Shown: positions 1,237-17,490, counted from the stretch's first letter. The stretch: DNA of 23,534 nucleotides from a virus (IMGVR_UViG_2563366895_000003:1-23534), one strand, 5' to 3'. The notes: a model not told the origin generated them from the letters alone. Numbers and translations are program-made.

Positions 1237-1237
1237 A

Positions 1238-1453
1238 TCATGAGTCTTTGATAAACTGATTTATCTTTGGATAGTTGTACCAGATAATTCCTCGCTTACT
1301 GTCTGGCTTCCCTAAAGGAGATACTCGTTTGAAGTGGAAGCCTTCCACCCAACAGTTCTGGCGGTATGCTTCAATTTGTCTGGCCCCCAGACCAGTGCGA
1401 AGCATCAGGCCGTATTCAACCATCCACTCTTCATTAAAGATTACTTGTGCCAT
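1238..1453 (-). CDS. xisR: Excisionase-like small protein (Rac XisR/YdaQ-like), 71 aa
   Basis: Small ORF immediately upstream of int on the same strand. Start chosen at [10 protein letters not shown] (GAGGTG Shine-Dalgarno 6 nt upstream) rather than the longer ORF start at 1477. Confidence 0.7.
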
Positions 1454-1552
1454 CGCATCACCTCTGGCAGGCGCCAATGTTAGACTTAGATTGACGCCCG
1501 ATGTTGATTATTAATAATCAGCTATGAAGTTTTAATTTGAATACAATGCAAT

Positions 1553-1741
1553 TCACGAGGACTGAAGTTTCTCGCAATTAAAATTTATCAGTTTTACTTT
1601 CTGCTCTCTGGAAACGCCTGCTTCTTTTTTACCTGAGAGCATTTTTTCGCATTCTGATTTAGTTAGTTTATATTTTGAATATCTTGTCCAGTTAGTAGGA
1701 GTGCCACCTTCCTTTTCAATAGTAGCGGTAATTTTATACAT
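1553..1741 (-). CDS. ydaC: Small Rac prophage protein YdaC-like, 62 aa
   Basis: ORF in the int-xis-ydaC-lar order. Start chosen at MYKITATIEKEGG with a GGAGGTG Shine-Dalgarno; it overlaps the lar stop by a few nt. Confidence 0.6.
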   Translation of the reverse strand: MYKITATIEKEGGTPTNWTRYSKYKLTKSECEKMLSGKKEAGVSREQKVKLINFNCEKLQSS

Positions 1742-1940
1742 GAACACCTCCATTATTATTTCCAGTGGTTCGTTTATTCCATCTTTCGAGTGCTTCTTTT
1801 TCACTTCCACCATAACCGGTTCGGGATTCGCATCCGTTACACTTCGCTCGGTAATATCCTGAAATGGCTTTCACCGTTACTGATGGACAACCACAAAATG
1901 GACATGGTTTAACATTGTCATATCTCATAATTTTTCTCAT
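1734..1940 (-). CDS. ralR: Restriction alleviation protein Lar/RalR-like, 68 aa
   Basis: Translation MRKIMRYDNVKPCPFCGCPSVTVKAISGYYRAKCNGCESRTGYGG; four-Cys zinc-ribbon-like motif (CPFC ... CNGC). The longer ORF start at 1967 (MHRQLEIFF) is also possible. Confidence 0.75.
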   Translation of the reverse strand: MRKIMRYDNVKPCPFCGCPSVTVKAISGYYRAKCNGCESRTGYGGSEKEALERWNKRTTGNNNGGVHV

Positions 1941-1984
1941 AAAAAATATTTCAAGTTGGCGGTGCATTACACCGCCAGGCTGAA

Positions 1985-2794
1985 TTATTCCTCTGAATTA
2001 TCGATTACACTGTATTCCCCGGTTAATACAGAGGAATCTGCAGGATCGATTGTCAGTGGTTCCTTTTCATCCATTGATACTGCACGCTGGATCTCAATTG
2101 ATACGGGCAGATATTTGAACAGGCGACGAATAGCCGTTTTTTTTGCCATTTCTTCCCAGTGAGTTACCCACGGCCCGTTATTACCAGCTTTACTCTGGCT
2201 GCGCACCAGCTCAATCTGTTTGCGCGTCATAACTTCAAACTGAGTACCTCCGTCTTTCAGTCTTGCGACAGCATAGACGTGGGTAACCGGGGCATCTTCG
2301 TTTTCTCCTGGGCGGTGTATTAACTTTTCATCAAGGCCAAATTCGAAATTAAACTCGTCACCTTCACGGACAACACGGGCTGACAGGCTGGCGATTTGAC
2401 CTGAACGGCGAGCCAGATCAATCATGCCGCGATAGCCAATGATTAGCTGAACGTTTTTTTTACCGCTCTTTTCGTTTTTATTACCAAAAGGCAGTAAATA
2501 TGCATGACCGAGGGCGCTACCGGGCTCAAGTCCGAGCTGTGAACACTGTACGATTGCACTGACAAAACTCATAGTGTCACAGTTTCCTAACGCCGGAACT
2601 TTACGAATTTCTGTGGTGGCGATACGGATCATACGTTCAGCCGTCATATGCCGTGGAAGAGCTGCTGCCAGTTGCTCTTTCATTGATGGCTGGTTAATAA
2701 AACTAATCACGTCGTTATTTTTAATTGCTGCTGGTGCACGGTTTCCCTGAGTTTTTTGCAGATCGGCTTTTGCGATTGGGGGTTGCTTAGTCAT
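1985..2794 (-). CDS. recT: Recombinase RecT (single-strand annealing protein), 269 aa
   Basis: Translation from [28 protein letters not shown] matches RecT as I recall it. Its ATG overlaps the recE stop (ATGACTAA), the arrangement I recall for recE-recT. Confidence 0.92.
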
Positions 2795-5387
2795 TTGCAT
2801 ATTCCTTAGCCCAGCGGGGCAGTGATAACGTCTTAATAGCTGGCCATTCATCGGTATTGAGGCAGTCAGCCAGGGTTCGCAGATTGCGGTGATATTCCAG
2901 CTGACCTGCCAGTTTTGCTTCTTCGCCCATCATGAAAATTTCAACCGGATAACGTCCGCATTCAATAGTTGTGCTGGCAACCAGAAAAACGAAAGTTGGC
3001 TGCACTCCAAACTGTGCTTCATAACCGTCACTGTAGAATGCATCCTGAACGTGATAGCGGTAGTCGTAATAAGCGGTTTTGAATCGTTGAATATCCGCCG
3101 TAGTTTTCACGTCCATGATCCAGTGAAATTCAGGGATAATTTTGTCCGGACGGCACCGACACAAAATTCCTGTTTCAGGATCTTCCCAGTAAATTGATGA
3201 TTCAGCGTGTCCGGCGCTTTCAACAAGCCATTGCCCCAGCGGCAAAGCCATAACGCTTTGATACATGAGTTCAATTTTCCGGCCTTCTTCCGCAGTGATA
3301 ACCGTTTTTCCTGTGCTTGCGCATTCCATCAGAAACGCTTTCTCCTCTTCTTTTCCGGCGTTTGTACGGCGGTTAAATTCAGGTGCTACGATAAAGCGGT
3401 TACTGAATTCTTCCGGTTCAAGTACCCGGCAGTGGAAAGCGGTTCCTAAATCGAGCGTTTTTGTCTTTGTGGTGTCCACGGGGGCATTTTTACGCCACAA
3501 ATACAATGCCGGAGTATCAGCAATGTCATCGAGCTGAGACTTACTGACACCGGGACCCGCGTGGTAATTCTCATTCGAAATTCCGTAATAAATACCTGGC
3601 TCTATGTCTTCTACGATTACGGGATCTGCGACTTTGCCAGTTTCATCACTGCAATCGCGATGCGGATCGCTGCCAGCATTCTCATTGTGCGGATGTTCAG
3701 CGCCTTCCATTTCCTCCGGATCATTTTCCTTAGCTTCAACCTGACTCTCTTCATCGAATGTTTCCTGGTATGTTGCGTCGCCCATCACCGCACCACAGTC
3801 AGGGCAGTTATCCCCGCCAGTCTGGCCGCAGGCATTGCAGGCTATTTCCGGTTCCTGTTGCACTACTGGCTCAGGTTGATTCATATCCGGGCTGGTTTTT
3901 TCCGTTTCTGGCTGGTTCTGGTACACAGAATCGCGAGTCTGGATCCCCTTTACCCATTTCGGATCGTTCGGGTCGCTAATTCCGTCAACAAATTCACCAC
4001 GTGATGCAGCAAGCAATTTATTGGCATCGACAGGATTTTTTGATGGAATGTTTTTCCGGGCTTCATGGAGTTCTGCCCGCAGTTCCTGATATTTCGCATC
4101 AACAGAATTTACCTGTGACTGAGCATCCAGCGGCTGCGTGTCCTGATGATGTTCAGTTGCGTCCGGTTCCATTGTTTCAGTCTCTCCCTGTTCAACTGCC
4201 GTTGTTCCAGATGGTTGCGGTTTTTCTTCATCATCCTGTTTTCCTTCTTCTGTTACTCGCTGCGGCATCGGGGCAGAGGAGCGACCGCAGGCAATATCCA
4301 CGATTTCCGGATCAGGGTTGGCATGATCGGTTTCAGTCAGTACTTTGTTCAGATATTCAGTGACGTGCGCGGGGATGATCTCGATCCCAATTGGTGCTTC
4401 TTTTACGGAAGCAACCACGATGGCGCGGGAATAATCCAGCCCGCCAGGCATGGTGATGAATTTGTCGCGGAAAACAGAAAAGGGCGGTTTATTTTCAGCG
4501 ATAATTTCCTCAATGCGTTTAGCGTGTGCCGGATGAATGTTATAGATGTCCAGATCCATTGAACGGGCCAGTACGCCAGTGGCTACGTCGCGCGCCAGTG
4601 ACGTCAGATCGTGTACGAAACCTTTGCCGCGATCGGTGAGGTTTCCGCCGCCAGCATTAGCACCGGAAGCCGTGCGAGTGATGTGTGAAACACGATTACC
4701 CTTCATCCACTCTTTTGTCAGCAGTCCTCGATCGGTGTAGTCAGCGTTCAGGTATGCTTCGAAAAAAGCAGTTATCAGTCCCAGGTTTGAATTACCAGGA
4801 TTAGGGAAAACTTTGTCAGTGTCACGAACCAGTTTGTGGAGATCGCGAATTTCCAGCGGGTCGAGCAGGCTGGTTTTGTGGGAAACAGCCAGGGCAGTAA
4901 CAGCCGGTAGTTCTTCAGCCCGAGCAATGTGTAATGCCTGGAGTCCGTCGCGTGAAACGTGCGTTACCGGTTTTTCGCTGCCGTGTTGAGCAAGCCAACG
5001 AATGGGCAGTTCCTGGCCAGAAATTGGGAGTAGCATATTCTCCTCAATCTCAGTCATGTCTTCGCCGTTGACGTTGGTATTGCCTTGATAGTGAGCGTTG
5101 TCTGGTGCTGCTCCCGGTTTTAGTTCCCATGTCATGGAGTCTTTGCTGAGTTGATAGCGTTCACTCCAGGTAAAATCGATCTCACCTTCAGCGGGCAGGT
5201 CATTAACGACAGGAAAATTCGTGGCAACAGCTTTAAAATAGCTGCTCAGTTTTTTACCTGACTTAACGATCAGGTAGTCCAGAGTGGCACAGGTCGATTC
5301 AAAATCGTCGCTTGCCCACAGGACGACGTCAGGTTCACCGGATGATTTTTTCGCTTTCCGTAACAGGAAGAGTGGTTTTGTGCTCAT
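2787..5387 (-). CDS. recE: Exodeoxyribonuclease VIII RecE, 866 aa
   Basis: 866-aa ORF. Acidic, repeat-poor N-terminal two thirds and a C-terminal nuclease-type region; GAGG Shine-Dalgarno before the ATG; immediately upstream of recT on the same strand. Confidence 0.92.
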
Positions 5388-5459
5388 TGTTTTTTAACCT
5401 CAACTCAGATTAAAATTCGTTTTGTTCAGTGAATGATCTTGCCGGATACACACTGTTCA

Positions 5460-5490
5460 TAGCCTGCGCCATACGCAGGCTATTTCTTTC
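5460..5490. other. Perfect 9-bp stem-loop (TAGCCTGCG-CCATA-CGCAGGCTA) plus TTTCTTTC in the racC-recE intergenic region
   Basis: Read directly from the sequence. The T-rich tail is on the plus strand, so it is not a canonical terminator for the minus-strand operon; possibly an RNA processing or stability element. Confidence 0.4.
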
Positions 5491-5764
5491 AGATTTCACC
5501 TTTTAATTTCATTGCAATTAGAGTTGCCAGAAATTCGGCTTTTTTTTCTGCGGGCAGATTCTTTCCGGTATGCACCAGGCACATTTTTTTGACACCTTCG
5601 TGAAGTGTTTTAACGTTGCCTGATGGACCGTCGATATCAACCACAGTGAATGGGGTTTCTTTATTTTCTGTTTTAATCACGTAGCCAATACGCTTTCCTT
5701 CCAGATTAACTTCGTGAACAATGTCATCAGTAGTTACAACAGTGGCTTCATAACTGGTAATCAT
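5489..5764 (-). CDS. racC: RacC, 91 aa
   Basis: Start chosen at MITSYEATVV with an AAGGAG Shine-Dalgarno 6 nt upstream; the longer ORF start at 5812 has no such support. Confidence 0.8.
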   Translation of the reverse strand: MITSYEATVVTTDDIVHEVNLEGKRIGYVIKTENKETPFTVVDIDGPSGNVKTLHEGVKKMCLVHTGKNLPAEKKAEFLATLIAMKLKGEI

Positions 5765-5838
5765 GTTTTTCTCCTTAATTAAGGTTGAGCGAATCCCTGC
5801 CATTGCTGGCATAAATTCAGTTTCGCATAGTCAGTTAA

Positions 5839-6009
5839 TTAAAGTTCGTGTGCCATCTGGTCTTTTTCGGCACATATTTCACTACAATATTTTTTCATTT
5901 CCGTCGTTGGGATAACTCCACGCATGAAATGAAGTGGTCTTTTAATGCTTTTGCTTTCTTTAACTTCTTTATCGCAAAGATGGTAAGCACATTTTATTTT
6001 CTTAGTCAT
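5839..6009 (-). CDS. ydaE: YdaE-like Cys-rich small protein, 56 aa (below the ORF-track cutoff)
   Basis: Hand translation: [56 protein letters not shown]. The ATG at 6007-6009 overlaps the kilR stop (ATGA), suggesting translational coupling. Confidence 0.65.
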   Translation of the reverse strand: MTKKIKCAYHLCDKEVKESKSIKRPLHFMRGVIPTTEMKKYCSEICAEKDQMAHEL

Positions 6010-6230
6010 CACCATGACTCCGCCTTTACAGGTAAACCATCACGACCGAGGAAGACTTTAATCATGCAGTCAGTAATGCATGTTTTTGTGGTCAGGTTAC
6101 GAATATAAAGTTTTCGCTTTTTAATATTGTTTGCCGAGGCAATATATGTCCGGCCGTTATGAAGAATATAATCACCAGGAGTCACACACTGACGAGGTAT
6201 TTCATCAGTTCCGAAGTGATGAGCAATCAT
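6009..6230 (-). CDS. kilR: Cell-division inhibitor KilR, 73 aa
   Basis: Translation [46 protein letters not shown]; GGAGAT Shine-Dalgarno 4 nt upstream of the chosen ATG. Confidence 0.8.
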
Positions 6231-6321
6231 AATTATCTCCATTTTCACAAATGAACTTTGTTGATGCGGTGCCTGGTGCCTCCAGGTGACGTTAACCAGT
6301 TAACAATTAACGCCGGATACC

Positions 6322-6660
6322 GTGGCTGATGTCATGAGTGCTCTACACGCTAGCTATGACGACGGGCAATCAGGCGAAAAATTTTTGCGGGAACTGTGCC
6401 AAGTGGATCTGCTGGTTCTTGATGAAATTGGCATTCAGCGCGAGACAAAAAACGAGCAGGTGGTGCTGCACCAGATTGTTGATCGCCGGACAGCGTCGAT
6501 GCGCAGCGTGGGGATGCTGACAAACCTGAACTATGAGGCCATGAAAACATTGCTCGGCGAGAGGATTATGGATCGCATGACCATGAACGGCGGGCGATGG
6601 GTGAATTTTAACTGGGAGAGCTGGCGTCCGAATGTCGTCCAGCTAGGAATTGCGAAGTGA
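6322..6660 (+). pseudogene. 5'-truncated DnaC-like helicase-loader remnant (C-terminal ~112 aa only)
   Basis: The ORF begins inside the AAA+ domain: a Walker-B-like DLLVLDEIG sits at residues ~29-37 and no Walker A/P-loop precedes it. No plausible start or Shine-Dalgarno. Confidence 0.6.
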
Positions 6661-6682
6661 TTTTTACCGGGAGGAAATTTTA

Positions 6683-7444
6683 ATGGAAACCGTTTTTGAT
6701 GCACTGAAAGCAATGGGAAAAGCCACGTCGGTAGAACTGGCTGCGCGACTTGATATCAGTCGTGAAGAAGTGCTGAACGAGCTGTGGGAACTGAAAAAGG
6801 CTGGATTCGTTGATAAAAGCGTATACACCTGGCGTGTGGCCGATAACAACGTTCAGCAGGAACATCCAGTGCCGGAAGAACAGCCGGAAGAAATCGCCAC
6901 AGCAACAGTGACGAAAATATCGGAGTGCGATTTAACCGCGACGATTGAACAACGTGGTCCACTAACTGCGGATGAACTGGCTACGTTGTTCGGTACCACA
7001 TCACGCAAAGTGGCTTCAACGCTGGCAATGGCAATCAGCAAGGGGCGTCTGATTCGCGTAAATCAGAACGGTAAATTTCGTTACTGCATGCCGGGCGATA
7101 ATTTACCAGCAGAACCGAAAGCTGCATTGGTAACGAAAAATGATGGTAAAGCCTTTCCTCAGCCAGCCGGTGCTGCGTTACCAGTACAGGAAGCGGCAAC
7201 ACAGGAAGATATTAAAACAGAAACTGTGGCGGACATTGTGCAGTCGCTGCCATCGTTTACTGAAACGCAAGCGGATGACTTGGTTTTACCATCGCTGCAT
7301 ATAGCAAACCGCGAACTGCGTCGGGCGAAAAATCATGTCCAGAAGTGGGAGCGTGTCTGCGCCGCGCTGCGGGAGCTGAACAAGCACCGGGATATTGTTC
7401 GACAGATTGTCGATTCCTCCAGTCGTATTGTGTCGGAAAAGTGA
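6683..7444 (+). CDS. Tandem winged-helix (wHTH) protein, 253 aa, function unknown
   Basis: GGGAGG Shine-Dalgarno before the ATG at 6683. Two internally similar segments ([30 protein letters not shown] and [31 protein letters not shown]) each resemble a wHTH recognition unit. Confidence 0.65.
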
Positions 7445-7459
7445 TTGCCGGAGGCGCTT

Positions 7460-7882
7460 ATGGCAAAAGTTTTTACACAGGAAGAGCGTGAAAAAATTAA
7501 GGAGCAGGTTGTTGAGCTGGTACGCCAGAGTGGGCGCGAGACGTTAAGGCAACTGGAGGCCAAGACAGGGGCGACAAGATATCTGATGAACATTCTTGCC
7601 AGAGAGTTGGTTGCCAGTGGCGATGTATACAACTCTGGCTATGGGTTATTTACCTCTGAACAGGCTCGTAAGGACTGGAATAACGCCCGCAAAAAACTAT
7701 CCAGGGCAAAGGTGAAAAAAACGGTTGTGGTTGATCCTGACCTTATCTGGTCATTACCAGACGGAGAAATACGCCGATATGACGGGCGTCTGAATATAAT
7801 CTGTAGCGAGTGCCGTAAGAGCGAAGTTATGAAGCGTGTACTGATGTTTTATCGAGGAAGTATCCAGGAATTTATTCGGTAA
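7460..7882 (+). CDS. Hypothetical prophage protein, 140 aa
   Basis: GGAGG Shine-Dalgarno 5 nt before the ATG at 7460; follows the previous gene after a 15-nt gap; no recognisable motif. Confidence 0.6.
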   Translation: MAKVFTQEEREKIKEQVVELVRQSGRETLRQLEAKTGATRYLMNILARELVASGDVYNSGYGLFTSEQARKDWNNARKKLSRAKVKKTVVVDPDLIWSLPDGEIRRYDGRLNIICSECRKSEVMKRVLMFYRGSIQEFIR

Positions 7883-8018
7883 GCAAAATCAAAATGTAAT
7901 CGCTCAAGTTTAAGTTGGTGTATCTACGGCGCAGAGCCATCGCCTCATCTGGCACTGCGCTAAAATCAAATTTAGTTCCACTCTTTATTTCGTATCTGCT
8001 AAAACGCTACATAAAATT

Positions 8019-8291
8019 TTACTTTTTTAAAGAATAAGGGAATATGTGCACCATATTGGAGGCTAGTGGATATATTCCTATGCTACGAGTTGTCTTTTTT
8101 AGTTGATCTATGCTTGCTTCTTTATCGGGAGCCCGGCCTCCCCACACTGTAACTCCCTCAGGTATATCGATTGGGCGACTTTTGTTTTCATCTGTGATTT
8201 CAATCGTTTCCCCATTATTAAGCGTAATAATCAACGATGACACGTCCAGGTGTTGTGTATTCCCATTTTTATTTTTAATGTCTATTTTCAT
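8019..8291 (-). CDS. Hypothetical small protein, 90 aa, AT-rich
   Basis: ORF only; no convincing Shine-Dalgarno. Composition differs from neighbours. May be spurious. Confidence 0.3.
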   Translation of the reverse strand: MKIDIKNKNGNTQHLDVSSLIITLNNGETIEITDENKSRPIDIPEGVTVWGGRAPDKEASIDQLKKTTRSIGIYPLASNMVHIFPYSLKK

Positions 8292-8561
8292 GGCTATTTC
8301 ATTATATGTTATCTGTGCTGGAGTAATAAGTTTACAGTATTAAGAAGCATTTTGACGAAACAATCAACTGACTTATCAGCTAAGGTGGCATTGTAATGCG
8401 ATCTGATTGGTATCATCAGGACGCTGTTCAAAAAAGGGGGATTAGTTGATCTTGAAATCTTGCTCAAAATGTGTAGCCTCTCGTTTAACTGCCAACTTTT
8501 TGGGGCAGTACACTCTGATGCTACACAACTTGCAAGTTTCATTACCCCGACGTAAACATTT

Positions 8562-9230
8562 ATGACAGTTGCTGATTTCAAACGTCCTAAGTTGGAGCTC
8601 CCAAACGGGGCAAACAAACTACTATTACACTCTTGTTGTGCACCATGTTCCGGTGAAGTGATGGAGGCTCTTCAGGCCTCAGGAATCGACTACACCATCT
8701 TCTTCTATAATCCGAACATTCATCCTCAGAAAGAGTATTTGATTCGTAAGAATGAGAATATTCGATTTGCTGAACAACATGGTGTACCGTTTATCGATGC
8801 TGATTACGACACTGACAACTGGTTTGAGCGAGCCAAAGGAATGGAATGGGAGCCCGAACGTGGGAGGCGTTGTACTATGTGTTTTGACATGCGTTTTGAA
8901 CGGACGGCGCTGTACGCCGCTGAAAATGGTTTCAGTGTGATCAGCAGTTCACTGGGCATTTCACGCTGGAAAAATATGCAGCAGGTTAACGACAGCGGAC
9001 GGCGAGCTGTCGCACATTATCCGGGCATGGTGTACTGGGATTATAACTGGCGCAAGCAGGGAGGCTCGTCCCGCATGATTGAAATCAGCAAACGCGAACA
9101 ATTCTATCAGCAGGAATATTGTGGTTGCGTGTATTCACTTCGCGATACCAATTTACACCGCAAATCCCAGGGACGCCCTCTTATCAAAATTGGTCAACTC
9201 CACTACGGTAAAGAAGAAGGGCAGGAATGA
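8562..9230 (+). CDS. queH: DUF208/QueH-like protein (putative epoxyqueuosine reductase), 222 aa
   Basis: N-terminal [11 protein letters not shown] plus [10 protein letters not shown] and YCGCVYS motifs, which I recall as the conserved Cys signature of the QueH/DUF208 family. Single-gene unit with its own flanking non-coding DNA. Confidence 0.65.
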
Positions 9231-9770
9231 TTTTTACATTACGTCAACAGAGTGTCACAACGTTTCTATATATGGTATGCCGACCGTAATTTTCGAATCA
9301 TCATGACTAATAGGCAGGTCACCTATGCCAGCAATGACCTGCTCATCTTGAAATTAGCAGAAATCTTGTAGCTATGATGTAGCTCAAAATAGTTTTTCAT
9401 TCTTTTACCTGATGTCTGTTCCTGGCTGAAAACAGACTGTATTATTTGATTACGCACCACTGACACTTGTGTATTGAAGTAGTGAGTACAAAGCCACATA
9501 TTTATCAGTGTATGTATACGTCAAAAACAGAAGATTGTTGTGCTGGTTCTGAAGTGTGCGTTAGCAATAGTGGCTGTGGTGGCAATTTATTGCCTTGTTG
9601 TTGTTCTTATGGAGCGACTTTCTGATTGATTACATACTGGCTAAAAAAAAGCGTTTGCCTGGCTTATCTTTGTCCGGCAAGGTGCGCTCATTAATCTGAA
9701 GTAAATTTATTTCTTAAGTATTCAGATTACTTCTTATGGTCGAAGTCTCCTGGCAATGTAGAACCAAAAT

Positions 9771-9813
9771 ATTTACAAAAACGAGACCCGTCGAGGATAG
9801 CTCTGCCGGGTCT
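9771..9813 (-). terminator. Intrinsic terminator candidate for the YeaR-like gene
   Basis: 7-bp stem AGACCCG/CGGGTCT with a 16-nt loop; on the minus strand it is followed by CGTTTTTGTAAAT. Confidence 0.45.
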
Positions 9814-9842
9814 GATTGTTAAAGTATTTTTAATATGATCAT

Positions 9843-10181
9843 CTATTTTTTGGTGCTATAAACTTTTTCGCCTGAGAAGTCTGGAGCGACCCAAAAGTTA
9901 ATATTAAACTGAGCATCATCGCTTAGTTCAACACGGTGCCAGTATTGTGGTGGGCTTGTTGCAAAAGAGCCAGCATTAATAACTACTTTTATCTCTGGTT
10001 CAGTAGTATTCTCATCAGCAAAACCATAATATGTTACAGTGCCTTCCATTACGCACAACTGCCCAAAAACACCTGCTGCTGTATTATGATGTGTTAATAA
10101 CGCTGAAGGTACGTTCTCTTTTGTGAAGAACGGAGTTGAGCGTTTGATTACCCAATCTTTAGGAATTCTCTTGTGTGTCAT
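9843..10181 (-). CDS. YeaR/DUF1971-like small protein, 112 aa (tentative family call)
   Basis: ATG at 10181 with GGAGGTG 5 nt upstream. The family call rests on my recollection of YeaR-type proteins and is tentative. Confidence 0.55.
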   Translation of the reverse strand: MTHKRIPKDWVIKRSTPFFTKENVPSALLTHHNTAAGVFGQLCVMEGTVTYYGFADENTTEPEIKVVINAGSFATSPPQYWHRVELSDDAQFNINFWVAPDFSGEKVYSTKK

Positions 10182-11052
10182 AACCACCTCCTATAAAACA
10201 TGTATTATAAATGCACCTTTTGAGGGGTTATGTCAAGCTCTTATGAAACACATAATTGATATGTTGATTAGAGGAGAAGATAGAATAAATATGGTTGTTT
10301 TTCGTATAACTACTTGTTTTGCTTTTGGTTTATGCATTCTATGTGTTAGGAATAAGTTATTAAAGCTTAATCAAGAAATCTCGATGTATTCCACATAGAT
10401 TACTGTTACTGAACCTTATTGTGTGCATTAGTTGTGTTCTGAAATTTCAGCTTAATTATTTATGATATATTTTTTAACGATAAATGTTTTCCCAGGTAAA
10501 AGACAGTTGGGAATAAGATAAGTAATATATCATTAATCTTGATTATTCCCAGGGTACCTTTACTGTGCATATAAATAAATCATATATGCATCAAATAATG
10601 TAAAGGCATCCTTTTAGATATGTCTTATCAAATGTTAATGACTTGAGTGGGAAACATGATTCCAGCAACTTATCATGTGGCTACTTTATAAAAATAATGC
10701 CCATATAAAACAACAAGCAAAAAGGATTACGGATAAAAAAGGAGCGAGATGTGCAAACTTGTTATTTTCCATGTTTAACCACCTTAAATAATTGATGATG
10801 ACGGGATGATTGCATCTGTAATGCTTTTATTGAAATGTTATGATAAAAAAGAACTTTTTCATAACATTAAAATGTAATTTAGCTAATCGTTTTTAATAAT
10901 AAGTGTCGTATTTCTATCCTTGTACCAGCTATTTGATATGTAGTGTTTGTTCATGCTATGTGGGGCTTTACACCATAGCCAGTTTATTTATACTTTATTC
11001 GTCAGCCTGAACAACTGGCATCTGCTGCACTGCGCCATAGAGAGATTGAGAA

Positions 11053-11652
11053 ATGGCGCATATACAACTGGTCAAACAAACTTCTTCTGGTTTACTTCTC
11101 CCGGCGACGCCGGAGAGTTGTGATTTTCTGCATCAAATTAAAATAGGCGAGTGGATACACGCTGATTTTAAGCGTGTGCGTAACTACGCATTCCACAAGC
11201 GTTTTTTCAAACTCCTGCAACTGGGATTCGATTACTGGACTCCGGTCGGTGGGGCGATCACGCCTCGCGAACGAGAACTGCTGTCTGGTTTCGTTGATTA
11301 CCTGTGCGAATCAGTTGGTCGGGAACACACGCCAGCCCTGAGTGATGCCGCAGAGCAATATCTGAATACAGTTGCGACACGCAGAACCCGGGATACGGCA
11401 TTGCTAAAGTCGTTTGAGGCTTTTCGCGAGTGGGTAACCATTCAGGCTGGATTTTACACCGAACATTTTTATCCGGACGGTAGCCATGGGCGTCGGGCGA
11501 AATCCATCGCTTTTGCGAATATGGACGAAACCGAGTTTCAGCAGGTTTATAAATCTGTTCTGAATGTGCTGTGGAACTGGATTCTGTTCCGTAAATTTTC
11601 CTCTCTGGAACAAGTCGAAAATGTGGCCGCGCAGCTGCTGGAGTTTGCGTAA
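11053..11652 (+). CDS. Lambdoid Nin-region protein (DUF1367-like), 199 aa
   Basis: ORF upstream of, and stop/start-overlapping (TAATG), the next gene; typical Nin-region position ahead of the Q candidate. Confidence 0.65.
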   Translation: MAHIQLVKQTSSGLLLPATPESCDFLHQIKIGEWIHADFKRVRNYAFHKRFFKLLQLGFDYWTPVGGAITPRERELLSGFVDYLCESVGREHTPALSDAAEQYLNTVATRRTRDTALLKSFEAFREWVTIQAGFYTEHFYPDGSHGRRAKSIAFANMDETEFQQVYKSVLNVLWNWILFRKFSSLEQVENVAAQLLEFA

Positions 11653-11942
11653 TGGTGGATTTACGTAAAGCGGCGCGGGGGCAGATGTGCACCGTCAGAA
11701 TTCCTGGCTACTGCAATCACGATCCGGAAACGTCTGTGCTGGCGCATTACCGACTGGCGGGAACGTGCGGAACAGCGACAAAACCACACGATATGCAGGC
11801 GGCGATTGCCTGTAGCTCATGCCACGATCTAATCGACGGGCGGGTAAAAACCAGCGATTACACCAAAGAAGAATTACGCCTGATGCATGCAGAAGGTGTT
11901 TTTCGCACACAAGAAATCTGGAGAAAGGAGGGATATTTGTGA
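11652..11942 (+). CDS. DUF1364/YbcO-like Cys-rich putative nuclease, 96 aa
   Basis: Cys motifs CTVRIPGYCNHD and CSSCHDLIDGR; position between a Nin protein and the Q candidate, as for ybcO in DLP12-type prophages. Confidence 0.65.
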   Translation: MVDLRKAARGQMCTVRIPGYCNHDPETSVLAHYRLAGTCGTATKPHDMQAAIACSSCHDLIDGRVKTSDYTKEELRLMHAEGVFRTQEIWRKEGYL

Positions 11943-12481
11943 TTTACCCAACGAATACAGGAAAAAGCGGAGAACACCTTCGTCTCGCCACGCTGGAAAG
12001 TGTCTGGATTCAGGGCAAACTGCGTATGTGGGGGCGCTGGTCGTATATTGGCGGTGGCAGGTCAGGAAATATGTTCAATCAGTTGTTGGCATCCCAAAAA
12101 TTGACGAAAACAGCCATCAATGAAGCCCTGCGCAGAATGAAAAAAGCGGGAATAGAGAAAGCTGAGCTGGAAGCGTTTTTGAGAGAGATGATCAACGGCA
12201 AGCAAAAGAGCTGGCTGGCGCATTGTACTGATGCAGAGGCGTTATGTATTGATCGAGTCATAAGTGAGGTGCTGGCAGAGCATCCAGGATTGATTAGCGT
12301 CCTTCGGCAACGGTATGAGGGGCGGGGAATGACCAAACGCAAAATGGCTGAATTGCTAAATGATGCACACCCAGAGTGGTGTTTTAGCACATGCGAAAAG
12401 CGAATTGCTAATTGGTTGGCCGTTGCTGAGTATGCGCTATACATTCCCATGCGAGAATCATTCGCTCAAAAAACGGCTTGA
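11939..12481 (+). CDS. Late-gene antiterminator Q candidate (positional), ~180 aa, GTG start
   Basis: GGAGGG Shine-Dalgarno 6 nt before a GTG that overlaps the preceding stop (GTGA). Last gene before a strong terminator, tRNAs and the lysis cassette. I did not recognise a Q-type zinc-finger motif, so the call is by position only. Confidence 0.45.
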   Translation: MIYPTNTGKSGEHLRLATLESVWIQGKLRMWGRWSYIGGGRSGNMFNQLLASQKLTKTAINEALRRMKKAGIEKAELEAFLREMINGKQKSWLAHCTDAEALCIDRVISEVLAEHPGLISVLRQRYEGRGMTKRKMAELLNDAHPEWCFSTCEKRIANWLAVAEYALYIPMRESFAQKTA

Positions 12482-12566
12482 TTTTTTACGCATAAACTGC
12501 TTCAATTTTGCTACGCTTCGCAAAGCTGTATCGCGTGGCGAATCAAGCGCAATTAAACTTTAATAG

Positions 12567-12597
12567 AACCCGCATCGAGCGGGTTTTGTTGTTTTTG
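12567..12597 (+). terminator. Strong rho-independent terminator (tR'-like position)
   Basis: Stem AACCCGC, loop ATCGA, stem GCGGGTT, then TTTTGTTGTTTTTG. Confidence 0.7.
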
Positions 12598-12833
12598 TGG
12601 GGTGATATAAGAAACGACATTTAATAATTGCCTTCAAAATAAATTTGTTTATATATTGTCGCGTATATTTTAAATGAAGGTGAAATGTTCACATAAAATA
12701 AAAATACATAAATAAATTTACATAACTTGACGAAAAGTGTTGTTGCGATTGGAATATTAAATCGTATTATCGAAAACGGTTCTGAGGGGGAACTCTTCTT
12801 TGATCGGTGATATCGCTCCCCTGAAGAACCAAT

Positions 12834-12909
<76 letters not shown>

Positions 12910-12912
12910 TAT

Positions 12913-12987
<75 letters not shown>

Positions 12988-13352
12988 GCATTTGAAACAA
13001 GCCTTATTGTATTGCGGCACTGGCGTATTTTTTATTACGTGGGAGCAGGTTGTTTTGGAAAAGCATTCTGTTCTCTGGCTATGATTTGAGGCCAGGTGTA
13101 GCCTCAGTGCTGATTTTTTTACGACAGCAGAATGGTGCATTATCGGTGGAGATTTTGTATTTCCTGGCAGGGTCGGTGATGCATCATTCTGGTGTTGTAA
13201 AAGCACCACAGAGGTGTTCCTCAGTGCGAGGGTAGTTTATATAGTGGTTTAGCGGGGAATCACAATATTTGTTGTAGGGACAGATATTTCGGGAGGCACC
13301 CGACACCTCGATTTTTATTACAATTAAAATGATTTATCTTATACATTGACCA

Positions 13353-13378
13353 ACCGCCATATCTGGCGGTTTTTTTTA
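13353..13378 (+). terminator. Rho-independent terminator after the tRNA pair
   Basis: Stem ACCGCCA, loop TATC, stem TGGCGGT, followed by T8. Confidence 0.6.
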
Positions 13379-13765
13379 TACCTGCATCAGACAAAAAAAG
13401 ACACGAGCATCCAGGAATACTCGTGGGACAACGTCCGTTAGATAGCAATTTGCGAGAGGGTGAAAAGTAGCGCGGTCGTCGGATTAAGACCGCGGGACAA
13501 AGTCCATGAAGAATAATAAGTATTGGCCCCCTTCTGGGGACATGTTCATACTACTAAGCTTCAGAAGTGGTTTAAATCATCAAATTAACCTTAATTTTCG
13601 ATAAGTCTTATTTCATTTCTTTGCGCCACATCTGGCGCGCATCAAATAACGCCACGCAAAGGGCATATGCGGATGCCGGTGCTTTTGACGGGGTGTTTTT
13701 TACGGGCCGCTGGTGGCCATTTTTTGTTTCCGTTACACAGCGCCCGCATCTGCGAGGTGGGGGTT

Positions 13766-13981
13766 ATGAAATCCATGGATAAGTTAACAACGGGTGTCGC
13801 CTATGGCACCTCCGCAGGCAGTGCTGGCTACTGGTTTTTACAGCTGCTCGATAAAGTCACGCCCTCACAGTGGGCAGCAATAGGTGTGCTGGGTAGCTTG
13901 GTATTTGGCCTGCTGACGTACCTGACAAACCTTTATTTCAAGATTAAAGAAGATAAGCGCAAGGCTGCGAGAGGTGAATAA
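13766..13981 (+). CDS. Class II holin (phage 21 S-like pinholin), 71 aa
   Basis: GAGGTGGGGG Shine-Dalgarno; dual-start motif MKSM; translation [50 protein letters not shown] ... KRKAARGE resembles S21 as I recall it. Stop overlaps the next start (TAATG). Confidence 0.85.
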
Positions 13982-14478
13982 TGCCTCCATCATTACGAAA
14001 AGCCGTTGCTGCTGCTATTGGTGGCGGAGCAATTGCTATAGCATCAGTGTTAATCACTGGCTCAAGTGGTAACGATGGTCTGGAGGGTGTCAGCTACATA
14101 CCATACAAAGATATTGTTGGTGTATGGACTGTATGTCACGGGCATACAGGAAAAGACATCATGCTCGGTAAAACGTATACCAAAGCAGAATGCAAGGCAC
14201 TCTTGAATAAAGACCTTGCCACTGTCGCCAGACAAATTAACCCGTACATCAAAGTCGATATACCGGAAACAACGCGCGGCGCTCTTTACTCATTCGTTTA
14301 CAACGTGGGTGCTGGCAATTTCAGAACATCGACGCTTCTTCGCAAAATAAACCAGGGCGATATCAAAGGGGCATGTGATCAGCTACGTCGCTGGACATAT
14401 GCTGGCGGTAAGCAATGGAAAGGTCTCATGACTCGTCGTGAGATTGAGCGTGAAATCTGTTTGTGGGGTCAGCAATGA
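13981..14478 (+). CDS. SAR (signal-anchor-release) endolysin, lysozyme-type, 165 aa
   Basis: Gly/Ala-rich N-terminal SAR segment ([23 protein letters not shown]) followed by a lysozyme-like domain; the position and holin pairing fit the R21 type. Confidence 0.85.
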
Positions 14479-14939
14479 ACAGAGTAACCGCGATTATCTC
14501 CGCTCTGATTATCTGCATCATCGTCTGCCTGTCATGGGCTGTTAATCATTACCGTGATAACGCCATTACCTATAAAGCCCAGCGCGACAAAAATGCCAGA
14601 GAACTGAAGCTGGCGAACGCGGCAATTACTGACATGCAGATGCGTCAGCGTGATGTTGCTGCGCTCGATGCAAAATACACGAAGGAGTTAGCTGATGCGA
14701 AAGCTGAAAATGATGCTCTGCGTGATGATGTTGCCGCTGGTCGTCGTCGGTTGCACATCAAAGCAGTCTGTCAGTCAGTGCGTGAAGCCACCACCGCCTC
14801 CGGCGTGGATAATGCAGCCTCCCCCCGACTGGCAGACACCGCTGAACGGGATTATTTCACCCTCCGGGAACGACTGGTAATGATGCAGGCCCAACTTGAA
14901 GGAGCTCAGCAATACATAACCGAACAGTGTTTAAAGTAA
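14475..14939 (+). CDS. rzpR: Spanin inner-membrane subunit Rz, 154 aa
   Basis: ATG overlaps the endolysin stop (ATGA); N-terminal TM helix then coiled-coil-like region; contains an embedded +1-frame Rz1. Confidence 0.8.
14695..14880 (+). CDS. rzoR: Spanin outer-membrane lipoprotein Rz1, embedded in Rz, 61 aa
   Basis: GAAGGAG Shine-Dalgarno 7 nt upstream; signal peptide with lipobox-like VVGC; proline-rich mature part ([15 protein letters not shown]). Confidence 0.75.
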
Positions 14940-15076
14940 AATCTTAACTACAATATGATTTATTTTGATGATTGTTTCATAAGGAACAGTGAAGTAAGAT
15001 CTAAGAGGAGTTAAATTTTATACAGTATAATCATAATATTGCAGCAAGGTGGTTATAATTGAAAGAATATTTAGAT

Positions 15077-16534
15077 ATGAATACATCTCATGTAAGAGTT
15101 GTTACTCATATGTGTGGGTTCCTGGTTTGGCTCTATAGTCTTTCAATGTTGCCACCAATGGTTGTAGCATTGTTTTATAAAGAAAAAAGCCTGTTCGTTT
15201 TCTTTATAACCTTCGTTATATTTTTTTGCATTGGTGGCGGAGCGTGGTATACAACTAAGAAATCTGGCATTCAATTACGTACCCGTGATGGGTTTATTAT
15301 AATTGTAATGTTTTGGATTTTGTTTTCTGTTATTAGTGCATTCCCTTTATGGATTGACTCAGAACTTAATTTAACGTTCATTGATGCTCTTTTTGAAGGG
15401 GTTTCTGGAATAACAACAACAGGAGCAACTGTAATTGATGATGTTAGTTCATTACCTCGGGCATATTTGTACTATCGGTCACAGTTAAATTTTATAGGTG
15501 GTTTAGGAGTTATTGTTCTGGCGGTTGCTGTATTGCCATTATTGGGTATTGGTGGTGCAAAGCTTTATCAGTCAGAAATGCCGGGGCCATTTAAGGATGA
15601 CAAACTCACTCCCCGCCTGGCCGATACGTCACGGACACTGTGGATAACTTATTCTTTATTAGGTATTGCTTGTATTGTCTGTTATAGACTTGCAGGAATG
15701 CCTTTGTTTGATGCTATTTGTCACGGGATTTCCACAGTTTCGCTTGGTGGTTTCTCAACTCATAGCGAGAGTATCGGATATTTTAATAACTATTTGGTTG
15801 AGCTGGTGGCTGGTTCTTTTTCCCTGCTATCGGCTTTCAACTTCACTCTTTGGTATATTGTTATTAGCAGGAAAACGATAAAGCCTTTAATCAGAGATAT
15901 TGAACTTCGTTTCTTTCTGTTAATAGCCTTAGTGGTGATCATTGTTACCTCTTTCCAGGTCTGGCATATAGGTATGTATGACTTGCATGGAAGTTTTATT
16001 CATTCGTTTTTTCTTGCCAGCTCCATGCTCACTGATAATGGTTTAGCTACGCAGGATTATGCAAACTGGCCCACGCACACGATAGTGTTTTTGCTGTTGT
16101 CAAGTTTCTTTGGGGGATGTATAGGTTCAACTTGTGGTGGAATTAAGTCACTTCGATTTCTTATACTTTTCAAACAAAGCAAACACGAGATAAATCAGCT
16201 TTCTCATCCCAGAGCGTTGTTGAGTGTAAATGTAGGAGGGAAGATAGTTACAGATCGTGTAATGAGGTCTGTATGGAGTTTCTTTTTTCTTTATACTCTC
16301 TTCACGGTGTTTTTTATACTGGTGTTAAATGGTATGGGATATGATTTTCTTACATCATTTGCAACAGTGGCTGCATGTATTAATAATATGGGATTAGGTT
16401 TTGGGGCTACTGCATCGTCATTCGGAGTGCTTAATGACATTGCAAAATATTTAATGTGCATAGCTATGATTCTTGGTCGCCTTGAAATTTATCCTGTTAT
16501 TATATTGTTTTCAGGTTTTTTTTGGCGCTCCTAA
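15077..16534 (+). CDS. trkG: Trk-system K+ uptake membrane protein TrkG, 485 aa
   Basis: Polytopic membrane protein; translation from MNTSHVRVVTHMCGFLVWLYS matches TrkG as I recall it. Markedly AT-rich, no obvious Shine-Dalgarno, TATAAT-like boxes at 15026-15031 and 15054-15059. Confidence 0.88.
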   Translation: MNTSHVRVVTHMCGFLVWLYSLSMLPPMVVALFYKEKSLFVFFITFVIFFCIGGGAWYTTKKSGIQLRTRDGFIIIVMFWILFSVISAFPLWIDSELNLTFIDALFEGVSGITTTGATVIDDVSSLPRAYLYYRSQLNFIGGLGVIVLAVAVLPLLGIGGAKLYQSEMPGPFKDDKLTPRLADTSRTLWITYSLLGIACIVCYRLAGMPLFDAICHGISTVSLGGFSTHSESIGYFNNYLVELVAGSFSLLSAFNFTLWYIVISRKTIKPLIRDIELRFFLLIALVVIIVTSFQVWHIGMYDLHGSFIHSFFLASSMLTDNGLATQDYANWPTHTIVFLLLSSFFGGCIGSTCGGIKSLRFLILFKQSKHEINQLSHPRALLSVNVGGKIVTDRVMRSVWSFFFLYTLFTVFFILVLNGMGYDFLTSFATVAACINNMGLGFGATASSFGVLNDIAKYLMCIAMILGRLEIYPVIILFSGFFWRS

Positions 16535-16620
16535 TATATGGCTGATTTATAATTGTGAGTTTAATATTATATTGACTCACTCATTGATCCAATACCTAAC
16601 TTTACCAGCAACACCTCCGC

Positions 16621-16656
16621 CCCCAGTAGCACTGGCTGCTGGGGTGCGTTTTATTC
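16621..16656 (+). terminator. Terminator candidate downstream of trkG
   Basis: Stem CCCCAG ... CTGGGG followed by TGCGTTTTATTC; the T-run is interrupted. Confidence 0.4.
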
Positions 16657-16671
16657 ATAAAGCAAGGCTGT

Positions 16672-17259: not shown

Positions 17260-17488
17260 CTCAATGAATGCAATGTTCTGCAATGCCAATGGTGAGCGTC
17301 GCTATAAAGTTAATGTGAAGCGTTGTCCGGTATATGCCGAATCACTGGAGCAACAGGTCTGGGATGATAAGGGGGAGCCTGATAAAAAATCTGGCAATGA
17401 TCACCCGAATGATGCCGGAGGTTATTTCATCGTTAAGCAATTCCCTATTGTCAAACCGACCGGAAGAGTCACATCACTTCGGATTTAA
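17231..17488 (+). pseudogene. Terminase large-subunit C-terminal remnant (YdaY-like), ~85 codons
   Basis: Short ORF overlapping the 3' end of the ParB-like gene and ending 3 nt before the putative portal start; call is by position and a weak C-terminal resemblance (GNDHPNDAGGYF). Confidence 0.4.
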
Positions 17489-17490
17489 TT

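What the first reader, a model, noticed from the sequence alone, without database searches (positions are those of the whole stretch)
8562..9230. QueH/DUF208-like epoxyqueuosine reductase carried as prophage cargo
The ORF has the Cys-rich signature I associate with QueH ([25 protein letters not shown]), the non-orthologous alternative to QueG for the last step of queuosine formation on tRNA. It sits as an isolated unit in the accessory zone between the early and Nin regions. A prophage-borne tRNA-modification enzyme, in a prophage that also carries its own tRNAs, would be unusual.
Basis: partly seen in the sequence, partly recalled or inferred. Interest (0 to 1): 0.55.

Follow-up and report, generated by a model that had tools for sequence, protein, structure and literature searches.

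The report
QueH tRNA enzyme on cryptic prophage
The ORF is a genuine, intact QueH (the vitamin-B12-independent enzyme that finishes the tRNA base queuosine) carried by a decayed Rac-type prophage of E. coli; databases already name it and about one E. coli genome in five has it, so it is ordinary apart from an untested idea that it frees the host from needing B12 for this step.

Summary
Observation confirmed. Window 8562-9230 (+) encodes a 222-aa protein that matches Pfam QueH end to end (E 1e-65) and T. maritima QueH by sequence (E 3e-22) and by fold (TM 0.87). All six structural Cys align. T. maritima Asp13 is Cys here, as in 114 of 120 family representatives.

The window is E. coli WL164: a defective Rac-type prophage at ttcA that has lost its immunity region and most morphogenesis genes.

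The gene is not rare. RefSeq already names it "epoxyqueuosine reductase QueH". It occurs in 995 of 5426 complete E. coli genomes, in lambdoid prophages just after the DUF977 gene in every context examined. It also occurs in one isolated phage (HannyBb), in at least 187 IMG/VR contigs, and on Klebsiella IncF conjugative plasmids. Every E. coli genome also has the B12-dependent queG.

dN/dS among mobile copies is 0.03-0.06. About 65 nt of 5' flank travels with the gene.

Best reading: a host-benefit moron that gives B12-independent oQ-to-Q reduction. Identity is shown; expression and benefit are inferred. The prophage tRNAs (Thr-UGU, Gly-UCC) are not queuosine substrates.

No paper in the searchable library describes this cargo, and PHROGs lists the family as "unknown function". 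Interest is modest.

The parts
8562..9230 (+). queH CDS, 222 aa (RefSeq WP_001595668.1, 'epoxyqueuosine reductase QueH').
   Evidence: ORF. Pfam PF02677 E 1.1e-65. PDB QueH E 3e-22. AF2 model pLDDT 83.7 and Foldseek TM 0.87 to 7LC7/7LC5. RefSeq annotation.
8634..8648 (+). Codons for Cys25-Cys26-Ala-Pro-Cys29. These align with T. maritima C9, C10 and D13, the residues mutated in PDB entries 9D86 (C9S) and 9DCO (D13N).
   Evidence: Alignments. PDB entry titles.
8871..8882 (+). Codons for Cys104-x-x-Cys107, aligned with T. maritima C87 and C90.
9120..9128 (+). Codons for Cys187-Gly-Cys189, aligned with T. maritima C169 and C171.
8497..8561 (+). About 65 nt of 5' flank that moves with the gene between prophage and plasmid contexts. 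It contains CTGATGCTACAC (8515-8526), invariant in the seven mobile copies checked, and an extended -10-like TGCTACACA (8519-8527). Most other copies have TGCTACACT. This is a putative own promoter; there is no Shine-Dalgarno sequence.
   Evidence: Alignments A1, A3, A5. Motif search. Upstream comparison. IMG/VR loci: TACACT in 76 of 79. The simple promoter scan found no canonical sigma-70 site on the + strand, so promoter function is inferred only.
9231..9640 (+). 3' flank shared only with the HannyBb and E. coli B copies. It holds a hairpin, GCAGGTCA (9314-9321) pairing with TGACCTGC (9335-9342), a 29-aa hydrophobic ORF (9540-9629) and terminator-like sites (9581-9618). Whether it belongs to the queH unit is uncertain.
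   Evidence: Alignment A2, ORF list, terminator scan, no Rfam match.
7445..7882 (+). DUF977 gene, the last gene of the replication module. queH lies downstream of it in every prophage context examined.
   Evidence: Pfam. Contexts.
9843..10187 (-). DUF1971 (YeaR/TehB-N-like) gene, a separate accessory gene next to queH. It was seen only in the window-allele contexts examined.
   Evidence: Pfam E 2.7e-26, phrog_34268, annotation.
12834..12987 (+). tRNA-Thr(UGU) and tRNA-Gly(UCC). These are context only and are not QueH substrates.
   Evidence: ARAGORN, Rfam.
1..20000 (.). Defective Rac-type prophage at ttcA: intR, xisR, ralR/RalA, recT, recE, kilR, then the deletion, then a ydaV remnant, DUF1627, DUF977, queH, nin-like genes, tRNAs, lysis genes, trkG, and partial terminase and tail genes. 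The right-hand limit is approximate.
   Evidence: 100% match to E. coli WL164 with its RefSeq annotation. Comparison with the fuller versions L001 and L018.

Best explanation
The ORF encodes a canonical, catalytically competent QueH. QueH is the cobalamin-independent iron-sulfur epoxyqueuosine reductase that converts epoxyqueuosine (oQ) to queuosine (Q) at position 34 of tRNA-Asn, -Asp, -His and -Tyr.

The gene was captured from an Enterobacterales chromosome. It now circulates as a small self-contained cassette (about 65 nt of 5' flank plus the CDS) in the mobilome of Enterobacteriaceae: lambdoid prophages in E. coli and IncF plasmids in Klebsiella. In this window it sits in a decayed Rac-type prophage.

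All E. coli already have QueG, which needs cobalamin, and E. coli cannot make cobalamin de novo. The most likely role is therefore a host-benefit 'moron': it makes the last step of Q synthesis independent of external B12, so carriers keep Q rather than oQ when B12 is scarce.

Shown here: identity, fold, ligand residues, purifying selection, mobile distribution, and co-residence with queG.

Inferred: expression from its own promoter in the lysogen, activity in E. coli, and any fitness benefit.
For: Identity:
- Pfam QueH E 1.1e-65 over the full length of the profile.
- PDB QueH E 3e-22.
- AF2 model matches 7LC7/7LC5 with TM 0.87 and rmsd 2.2.
- All six T. maritima Cys align with Cys.
- The Asp13 position is Cys in 120 of 120 close homologues and in 114 of 120 representatives of 50%-identity clusters. 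All 64 representatives that cover every position keep all seven.

Origin:
- The protein is 79-86% identical to QueH of Erwinia, Providencia, Proteus, Photorhabdus, Gibbsiella and others.
- In the relatives examined the gene sits in ordinary chromosomal neighbourhoods with no phage genes, for example purL-queH-glrK.

Selection:
- dN/dS is 0.026-0.065 at dS 0.27-1.6 among prophage, phage and plasmid alleles.
- 79 of 80 IMG/VR copies are intact with all Cys motifs.
- The gene is intact in decayed prophages (this window; E. coli B).

Host-level rather than phage-level role:
- The same gene (92% aa identity) lies on conjugative IncF plasmids of Klebsiella, sharing only about 65 nt upstream and about 50 nt downstream.
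- Here the immunity region of the prophage is deleted (compare).

Redundancy with a B12-dependent enzyme:
- queG is in 5426 of 5426 E. coli genomes and queH in 995.
- The last step via QueG depends on cobalamin, and K-12 yjeS (queG) knock-outs accumulate oQ (PMC4646009).
- E. coli's cobamide-dependent enzymes include QueG (PMC11841063).
- Co-occurring QueG and QueH in S. aureus have been read as cofactor-availability backup (PMC13443448).

Own regulatory flank: TGCTACACT lies about 40 nt upstream in 76 of 79 IMG/VR copies and in the closest chromosomal relative.
Against: - No expression data exist. The simple sigma-70 scan found no + strand promoter upstream.
- The window allele has TACACA instead of TACACT at the putative -10, and there is no Shine-Dalgarno sequence.
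- No phenotypic difference between oQ and Q is established, so the size of any benefit is unknown.
- The gene is dispensable. About 82% of E. coli genomes lack it. BL21(DE3) has lost it by a clean 1.36-kb deletion relative to E. coli B-StaR. E. coli IncF plasmids carry only decayed fragments.
- Its orientation and position in the early-right operon would also suit expression during lytic growth.
Confidence: 0.6

Rival explanations
1. The gene serves the phage. QueH is expressed from the early-right transcript during lytic growth to push host tRNAs fully to Q and so tune decoding of NAU/NAC codons in phage genes.
For: The gene has the same orientation as the replication and nin genes and directly follows the replication module in every prophage context examined. 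An isolated phage, HannyBb, carries it intact. At least 187 IMG/VR viral contigs encode it.
Against: The same cassette is on conjugative plasmids that have no lytic cycle. It is kept intact in prophages that can no longer grow lytically, and here the immunity region, where the early promoters would lie, is deleted. No difference in decoding between oQ and Q is known. The phage-borne tRNAs are not Q-tRNAs.
Confidence: 0.15
2. The gene is a redundant passenger. QueH is active but selectively neutral in E. coli because QueG suffices, and it simply hitch-hikes with successful prophages and plasmids.
For: queG is universal. Most E. coli lack queH. It was lost without obvious cost in BL21(DE3) and has decayed to fragments on E. 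coli IncF plasmids.
Against: dN/dS is 0.03-0.06 across alleles that have accumulated 0.3-1.6 synonymous substitutions per site while on mobile elements. 79 of 80 IMG/VR copies are intact. The gene survives in prophages whose neighbouring genes are pseudogenes.
Confidence: 0.17
3. The enzyme has a different substrate or a conflict role. It might act on a 7-deazaguanine derivative in DNA, or alter the Q34 state of tRNA to escape or trigger an anticodon nuclease or defence system.
For: Phages do use 7-deazaguanine pathways for DNA modification (PMC6884629, PMC10516641). The accessory zone and the right end of the element hold other unknown or defence-candidate genes.
Against: No DpdA/TGT, QueC, QueD or QueE genes are in the element. 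The protein is 79-86% identical to chromosomal QueH of other Enterobacterales, with all active-site positions unchanged. It has no PADLOC match.
Confidence: 0.04

Closest known systems
QueH of Thermotoga maritima (PDB 7LC5, 7LC7, 9DEU; Pfam PF02677, formerly DUF208)
   Same: Same family and fold: E 3e-22, about 30% identity, TM 0.87. Same six Cys. Same adenine-nucleotide-alpha-hydrolase-like core.
   Different: Asp13 of the T. maritima enzyme is Cys29 here, which is the majority state of the family. The E. coli protein has a 19-aa N-terminal extension and a basic C-terminal extension of about 28 aa, both shared with other Enterobacterales QueH.
Chromosomal QueH of other Enterobacterales (Erwinia, Providencia, Proteus, Photorhabdus, Gibbsiella, Ewingella)
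   Same: 79-86% identical, same length, all conserved residues present. The closest chromosomal relative found (86% identical, named Erwinia sp. by NCBI) has the upstream TGCTACACT motif.
   Different: Those copies lie in ordinary chromosomal neighbourhoods with no phage genes. This one is on a prophage, alongside a chromosomal queG.
[quoted passage not shown]
   Same: Same reaction, EC 1.17.99.6, oQ-tRNA to Q-tRNA (PMC5372724).
   Different: Non-orthologous, with an unrelated fold and cofactor set. QueG needs cobalamin (PMC4646009). queG is core (5426 of 5426 genomes) and queH is accessory (995 of 5426).
Firmicutes that encode both QueG and QueH (S. aureus; S. pyogenes and S. suis)
   Same: Two non-orthologous reductases for the same step co-reside, which has been interpreted as insurance against cofactor shortage (PMC13443448, PMC12632869).
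   Different: In those papers the second enzyme is not reported to be on a mobile element. Here it is supplied by the mobilome and varies from strain to strain.
Phage 7-deazaguanine DNA-modification clusters (DpdA plus FolE/QueD/QueE/QueC)
   Same: Phage-borne genes drawn from the queuosine/archaeosine pathway.
   Different: Those clusters modify phage DNA and lack the tRNA-specific late enzymes. The survey that defined them stated that no QueA, QueG or QueH homologues were found in the viruses analysed (PMC6884629). Here a lone late-step enzyme is present with no DpdA.
Lambdoid 'morons' / lysogenic-conversion genes
   Same: A single gene inserted between conserved modules, with different base composition from its flanks and its own short 5' flank. 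It is polymorphic for presence or absence among related prophages.
   Different: Autonomous expression in the lysogen has not been shown, and no canonical terminator directly follows the gene.

Membership tests
QueH (PF02677, epoxyqueuosine reductase) | Significant full-length match to the family profile. | tested here: met
   E 1.1e-65, 221.5 bits against a cut-off of 23.5, profile positions 1-174 of 175. The NCBIfam library held no model that matched.
QueH (PF02677, epoxyqueuosine reductase) | Six conserved Cys (CC...CxxC...CxC) at the positions of T. maritima C9, C10, C87, C90, C169 and C171. From memory of Li et al. 2021, which could not be read here, these bind the [4Fe-4S] cluster and the adjacent iron. 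| tested here: met
   C25, C26, C104, C107, C187 and C189 align one-to-one. They are conserved in 96-100% of the representatives that cover each position.
QueH (PF02677, epoxyqueuosine reductase) | A metal-ligating or catalytic residue at the T. maritima Asp13 position (probed by the D13N structure 9DCO). | tested here: met
   Cys29 here. Among 120 representatives the position is Cys in 114 and Asp in 4, and it is Cys in 120 of 120 close homologues. Chemical equivalence of Cys and Asp at this site is inferred.
QueH (PF02677, epoxyqueuosine reductase) | QueH fold. | tested here: met
   AF2 pLDDT 83.7, pTM 0.84. Foldseek top five hits are all T. maritima QueH: E 1.6e-13, target-normalised TM 0.87, rmsd 2.2 Å. 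The next hits are TtuA-type enzymes at E of about 1e-5.
QueH (PF02677, epoxyqueuosine reductase) | Catalyses oQ-tRNA to Q-tRNA without cobalamin. | not testable with these tools
   Needs LC-MS of tRNA from queG/queH mutants or an in vitro assay.
QueH (PF02677, epoxyqueuosine reductase) | The substrate pathway (tgt, queA) is present in the host, so oQ-tRNA exists. | not tested
   This is established for E. coli K-12 (PMC5372724, PMC9508795). Only queG was checked across genomes here.
Prophage moron / lysogenic-conversion gene | A discrete insertion between conserved phage modules, with presence or absence varying among related prophages. | tested here: met
   The gene follows DUF977 in every prophage context examined. 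Homology between contexts breaks about 65 nt upstream and 0-50 nt downstream. It is absent from the BL21(DE3) Qin-like prophage.
Prophage moron / lysogenic-conversion gene | Own promoter and terminator. | tested here: inconclusive
   A conserved extended -10-like TGCTACAC(T/A) lies 40 nt upstream. However, the consensus scan found no + strand promoter, and the only terminator-like sites are about 350 nt downstream.
Prophage moron / lysogenic-conversion gene | Expressed in the lysogen and changes the host phenotype. | not testable with these tools
   Requires transcriptomics and Q/oQ measurement.
Phage 7-deazaguanine DNA-modification system | A DpdA/TGT-like transglycosylase plus preQ0 synthesis genes in the element. 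| tested here: not met
   None appears among the annotated genes of this element or of the fuller versions.

The most novel reading that the evidence does not exclude
Mobile elements (lambdoid prophages in E. coli, IncF plasmids in Klebsiella) spread a 'cofactor-independence cassette'. Carriers finish queuosine without vitamin B12. The Q/oQ state of four tRNAs would then become a strain-variable, mobilome-determined trait in Enterobacteriaceae that otherwise depend on scavenged cobalamin. This could matter in B12-poor niches such as urine or blood, since ST131 and O157:H7 strains are among the carriers.
Probability: 0.4. Interest if true: 0.5.

Novelty: already known. Interest (0 to 1): 0.3.

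Why it matters
The gene's identity is already recorded: RefSeq names this exact protein QueH. What is not described in any paper I could search is its distribution. A late-step queuosine enzyme is common mobile cargo in about 18% of complete E. coli genomes, in an isolated phage and on Klebsiella plasmids, and it always sits alongside the B12-dependent QueG.

If it is expressed, E. coli strains would differ in whether their tRNAs carry Q or oQ in B12-free conditions. That is relevant to tRNA mass-spectrometry studies, to comparisons between strains, and to the idea that mobile elements buffer cofactor dependence.

There is also a practical annotation gain. PHROGs family 3217 ('unknown function') and the HannyBb gene ('hypothetical protein') can be named QueH.

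Tried and rejected
- NCBIfam scan: no model matched. This is uninformative, because PGAP still names the protein.
- Rfam at gathering threshold over the whole window, and at E<=1 over 7800-11100: nothing near queH.
- Simple promoter scan: no + strand sigma-70 site upstream of queH.
- PADLOC: no defence-family match for QueH or its two neighbours.
- Ten literature searches (QueH, DUF208, COG1636, epoxyqueuosine reductase, combined with prophage, phage, BL21, or protein accessions) found no paper on prophage- or plasmid-borne QueH in E. coli.
- The key papers were not held: Zallot 2017, Li 2021, Miles 2011 and Frey 1988. Ligand assignments for T. maritima QueH therefore rest on PDB entry titles and memory.
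- I expected BL21(DE3) to carry the gene because an E. coli B derivative does. It does not: a 1.36-kb deletion removed it.
- A functional link to the prophage tRNAs was rejected because their anticodons are UGU and UCC.
- A DNA-modification role was rejected because the element has no DpdA or preQ0 genes.
- Codon-usage (NAU/NAC) analysis was considered but not run, because no decoding difference between oQ and Q is known that would make it interpretable.

Full report
**1. The observation**

An ORF runs from ATG 8562 to TGA 9228-9230 on the + strand and encodes 222 aa.

The gene stands alone. It has 270 nt of spacer upstream and 612 nt downstream, and both flanking genes are on the other strand. 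It lies in a low-GC accessory zone: the gene is 47% GC, its immediate flanks are 38-40%, and GC falls to 29% further right.

**2. What the protein is**

- Pfam PF02677 (QueH) matches at E 1.1e-65, 221.5 bits against a 23.5-bit cut-off, covering profile positions 1-174 of 175.
- The only solved relatives by sequence are the T. maritima QueH entries, at E 3e-22.
- An AlphaFold2 model (pLDDT 83.7, pTM 0.84) has T. maritima QueH as its five best Foldseek hits in the PDB: E 1.6e-13, target-normalised TM 0.87, rmsd 2.2 Å. TtuA-type enzymes follow only at E of about 1e-5.
- All six Cys of the T. maritima protein (C9, C10, C87, C90, C169, C171, counted from the alignment) align with Cys here.
- T. maritima Asp13, probed by the deposited D13N structure 9DCO, corresponds to Cys29.
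- This is the majority state of the family, not a deviation. Position 29 is Cys in 120 of 120 close homologues. It is Cys in 114 and Asp in 4 of 120 representatives of 50%-identity clusters. All 64 representatives that cover every position keep all seven.
- Against 120 close homologues the window allele departs from a consensus of at least 90% at only two positions, I142V and C145S. Neither is a ligand position.

Which Cys binds the cluster and which binds the extra iron I can state only from memory of Li et al. 2021. That paper was not held in the library.

**3. Where it sits**

The window is 100% identical to E. coli WL164 chromosome, NZ_CP128642.1 2427914-2451447. RefSeq annotation shows a Rac-type prophage at ttcA. 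In order it contains:

- intR, xisR, ralR (with the RalA sRNA), recT, recE and kilR;
- a truncated ydaV-like gene, then DUF1627 and DUF977;
- a hypothetical gene on the minus strand, then queH, then DUF1971 on the minus strand;
- DUF1367, DUF1364 and DUF1133, then tRNA-Thr and tRNA-Gly, then the lysis genes;
- trkG, followed by partial ynaK, terminase and tail-fibre-assembly genes;
- then DUF2971, DUF4236 and sitD.

Fuller versions of the element exist in strains SCU-109 and 746. Compared with them, this copy has lost the repressor, cro, ydaT, ydaU and the ydaV N-terminus, and it has no capsid genes. So the element is a cryptic remnant, and queH has stayed intact within it.

**4. How common it is**

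- The CDS is found in 995 of 5426 complete E. coli genomes. In 43 it is at least 99% identical (this allele). In 952 it is 90-95% identical (a second allele group). Every listed hit is annotated 'epoxyqueuosine reductase QueH'.
- The contexts inspected were E. coli B-StaR, O157:H7, ST131 and a 'plasmid'-labelled prophage. All are lambdoid prophages, with queH just after the DUF977 gene and before hokD or the nin region.
- An isolated phage, HannyBb, carries it at 97% aa identity, annotated 'hypothetical protein'.
- IMG/VR holds at least 187 viral contigs that encode it. Of 80 fetched, 79 have an intact 221-222-aa ORF with all Cys motifs.
- PHROGs family 3217 matches at E 8.8e-134 but is labelled 'unknown function', and its model starts only at residue 34.
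- About 100 plasmid records, mostly from Klebsiella, carry an intact copy at 90-93% aa identity. In the record inspected it lies just after the IncFII repA of a conjugative plasmid.
- E. coli IncF plasmids carry only unannotated fragments.

**5. Origin and selection**

The nearest non-mobile relatives, at 79-86% identity, are QueH of Erwinia, Providencia, Proteus, Photorhabdus, Gibbsiella, Sodalis, Ewingella and others. In the relatives examined the gene sits in ordinary chromosomal neighbourhoods with no phage genes, for example purL-queH-glrK-glrR-glnB, or near tmcA and purC.

Among mobile alleles (window, HannyBb, E. coli B, O157/ST131, Klebsiella IncF) dN/dS is 0.026-0.065, while dS ranges from 0.27 to 1.6. 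The protein has therefore been under strong purifying selection while on mobile elements.

**6. The unit that moves**

Alignments of different contexts (A1-A5) show that homology begins about 65 nt upstream of the ATG. It ends at the stop codon or within about 50 nt of it. The exception is the HannyBb and E. coli B copies, which share about 400 nt more.

The 5' flank contains CTGATGCTACAC, invariant in the seven mobile copies checked (window 8515-8526). Within it lies an extended -10-like TGCTACACT about 40 nt before the ATG. This motif is present in 76 of 79 IMG/VR copies and in the closest chromosomal relative. The window allele has TGCTACACA instead.

This is compatible with a native promoter carried along with the gene. 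However, the consensus scan found no + strand promoter and there is no Shine-Dalgarno sequence, so expression remains inferred.

**7. Why a mobile element would carry it**

- queG is present in all 5426 genomes, so queH is always a second, non-orthologous enzyme for the same step.
- QueG is cobalamin-dependent. The last step of Q synthesis in E. coli was shown to need cobalamin, and K-12 yjeS (queG) knock-outs accumulate oQ (PMC4646009, citing Frey 1988 and Miles 2011). QueG is one of E. coli's cobamide-dependent enzymes (PMC11841063).
- E. coli does not synthesise cobalamin de novo (established knowledge).
- QueH uses iron cofactors instead (PMC9508795, PMC13443448).

The simplest mechanism is that carriers reduce oQ to Q regardless of B12 supply. 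Three observations favour a benefit to the host over a benefit to phage growth:

- the same cassette lies on conjugative plasmids;
- the gene is retained in defective prophages;
- it is under strong purifying selection.

A role in lytic growth is not excluded, because the gene's orientation and position fit the early-right operon and a viable phage carries it.

The gene is also dispensable. Most strains lack it, and BL21(DE3) lost it through a clean 1.36-kb deletion relative to E. coli B-StaR.

**8.

- The tRNAs in the element are Thr(UGU) and Gly(UCC). Queuosine occurs only in the GUN-anticodon tRNAs for Asn, Asp, His and Tyr (PMC10570037), so there is no functional link.
- The gene is not unusual in E. 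coli.
- The element is a decayed remnant, not an intact prophage.

**9. Comparison with what is known, and novelty**

This is a plain member of QueH, and RefSeq already calls it that, so I rate it 'already known'.

The mobile distribution is what appears undescribed. Ten full-text searches found nothing on it. The survey of 7-deazaguanine genes in viruses stated that no QueA, QueG or QueH homologues were found in the viruses it analysed (PMC6884629).

Co-residence of QueG and QueH is known in S. aureus and some streptococci, where it has been interpreted as cofactor backup (PMC13443448, PMC12632869). In those papers the second enzyme is not reported to be on a mobile element.

**10. Verdict**

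The finding is ordinary in kind. It carries a modestly interesting and directly testable hypothesis: mobilome-supplied B12 independence of queuosine maturation.

- Interest: 0.3.
- Confidence in protein identity: about 0.95.
- Confidence in the full explanation, including the physiological role: about 0.6.

Noticed in passing
window 5400-6700: Compared with fuller Rac-type prophages (L001, L018), this copy has lost the whole immunity and early replication region: ydaF, repressor, cro, ydaT, ydaU and the ydaV N-terminus. kilR (6009-6230, minus strand) now abuts a ydaV remnant (6319-6660, plus strand). The prophage is cryptic.
   Followed up: partly
window 20100-22304 (minus strand): A DUF2971 protein (20100-21089) matches the PADLOC candidate defence family PDC-S31 (E 2.6e-20). 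It is followed by a DUF4236 protein (21102-22304). The pair lies at the right edge of the prophage remnant, next to sitD, and may be a defence island.
   Followed up: partly
window 9843-10187 (minus strand): A DUF1971 (YeaR/TehB-N-terminal-like) gene lies next to queH (Pfam E 2.7e-26; phrog_34268, 'unknown function'). It was seen only in the window-allele contexts examined and looks like a second independent accessory gene.
   Followed up: partly
window 9231-9640: A conserved non-coding stretch after queH is shared with phage HannyBb and E. coli B. It contains a hairpin (9314-9321 pairing with 9335-9342) and a 29-aa hydrophobic ORF (9540-9629, MLVLKCALAIVAVVAIYCLVVVLMERLSD) that looks like a type I toxin. 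In other prophages hokD lies just beyond this region. There is no Pfam or Rfam match, and the stretch is unannotated in every genome listed.
   Followed up: partly
window 10300-10900: A stretch of about 600 nt at 29% GC has no ORF longer than 40 aa and no Rfam match. It lies between the DUF1971 gene and the nin-like genes.
   Followed up: no
L020 (BL21(DE3) NC_012971.2 1591003-1591939) versus L003 (E. coli B-StaR): BL21(DE3) has a clean 1361-bp deletion that removes the 3' end of the DUF977 gene, a methyltransferase fragment, queH and about 290 nt downstream. E. coli B lineages therefore differ in whether they carry queH.
   Followed up: yes
plasmid records, e.g. NC_013942.1 54958-55134 and NZ_CP045828.1 2314-2490; L008 7001-7669: Many E. 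coli IncF plasmids carry unannotated QueH fragments (aa 107-165, 61% identity). Klebsiella IncF plasmids carry an intact queH just downstream of repA. This suggests an old plasmid-borne copy that decayed in E. coli.
   Followed up: partly
window 1557-1928: The RalR/RalA type I toxin-antitoxin pair of Rac is intact: RalA sRNA at 1557-1735 (Rfam, 212 bits) and ralR at 1734-1928 on the minus strand.
   Followed up: no
PHROGs phrog_3217; L002 6028-6714: The phage-protein family that holds this QueH is labelled 'unknown function', and its model starts at residue 34. Some member gene calls may therefore begin at Met34 and omit the CCAPC motif. The HannyBb gene is annotated 'hypothetical protein'.
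   Followed up: partly
window 15077-16534 and 22677-23534: The host-type transporter gene trkG lies inside the prophage, as in K-12 Rac. The sitABCD iron/manganese transporter operon lies immediately to the right of the remnant.
   Followed up: no
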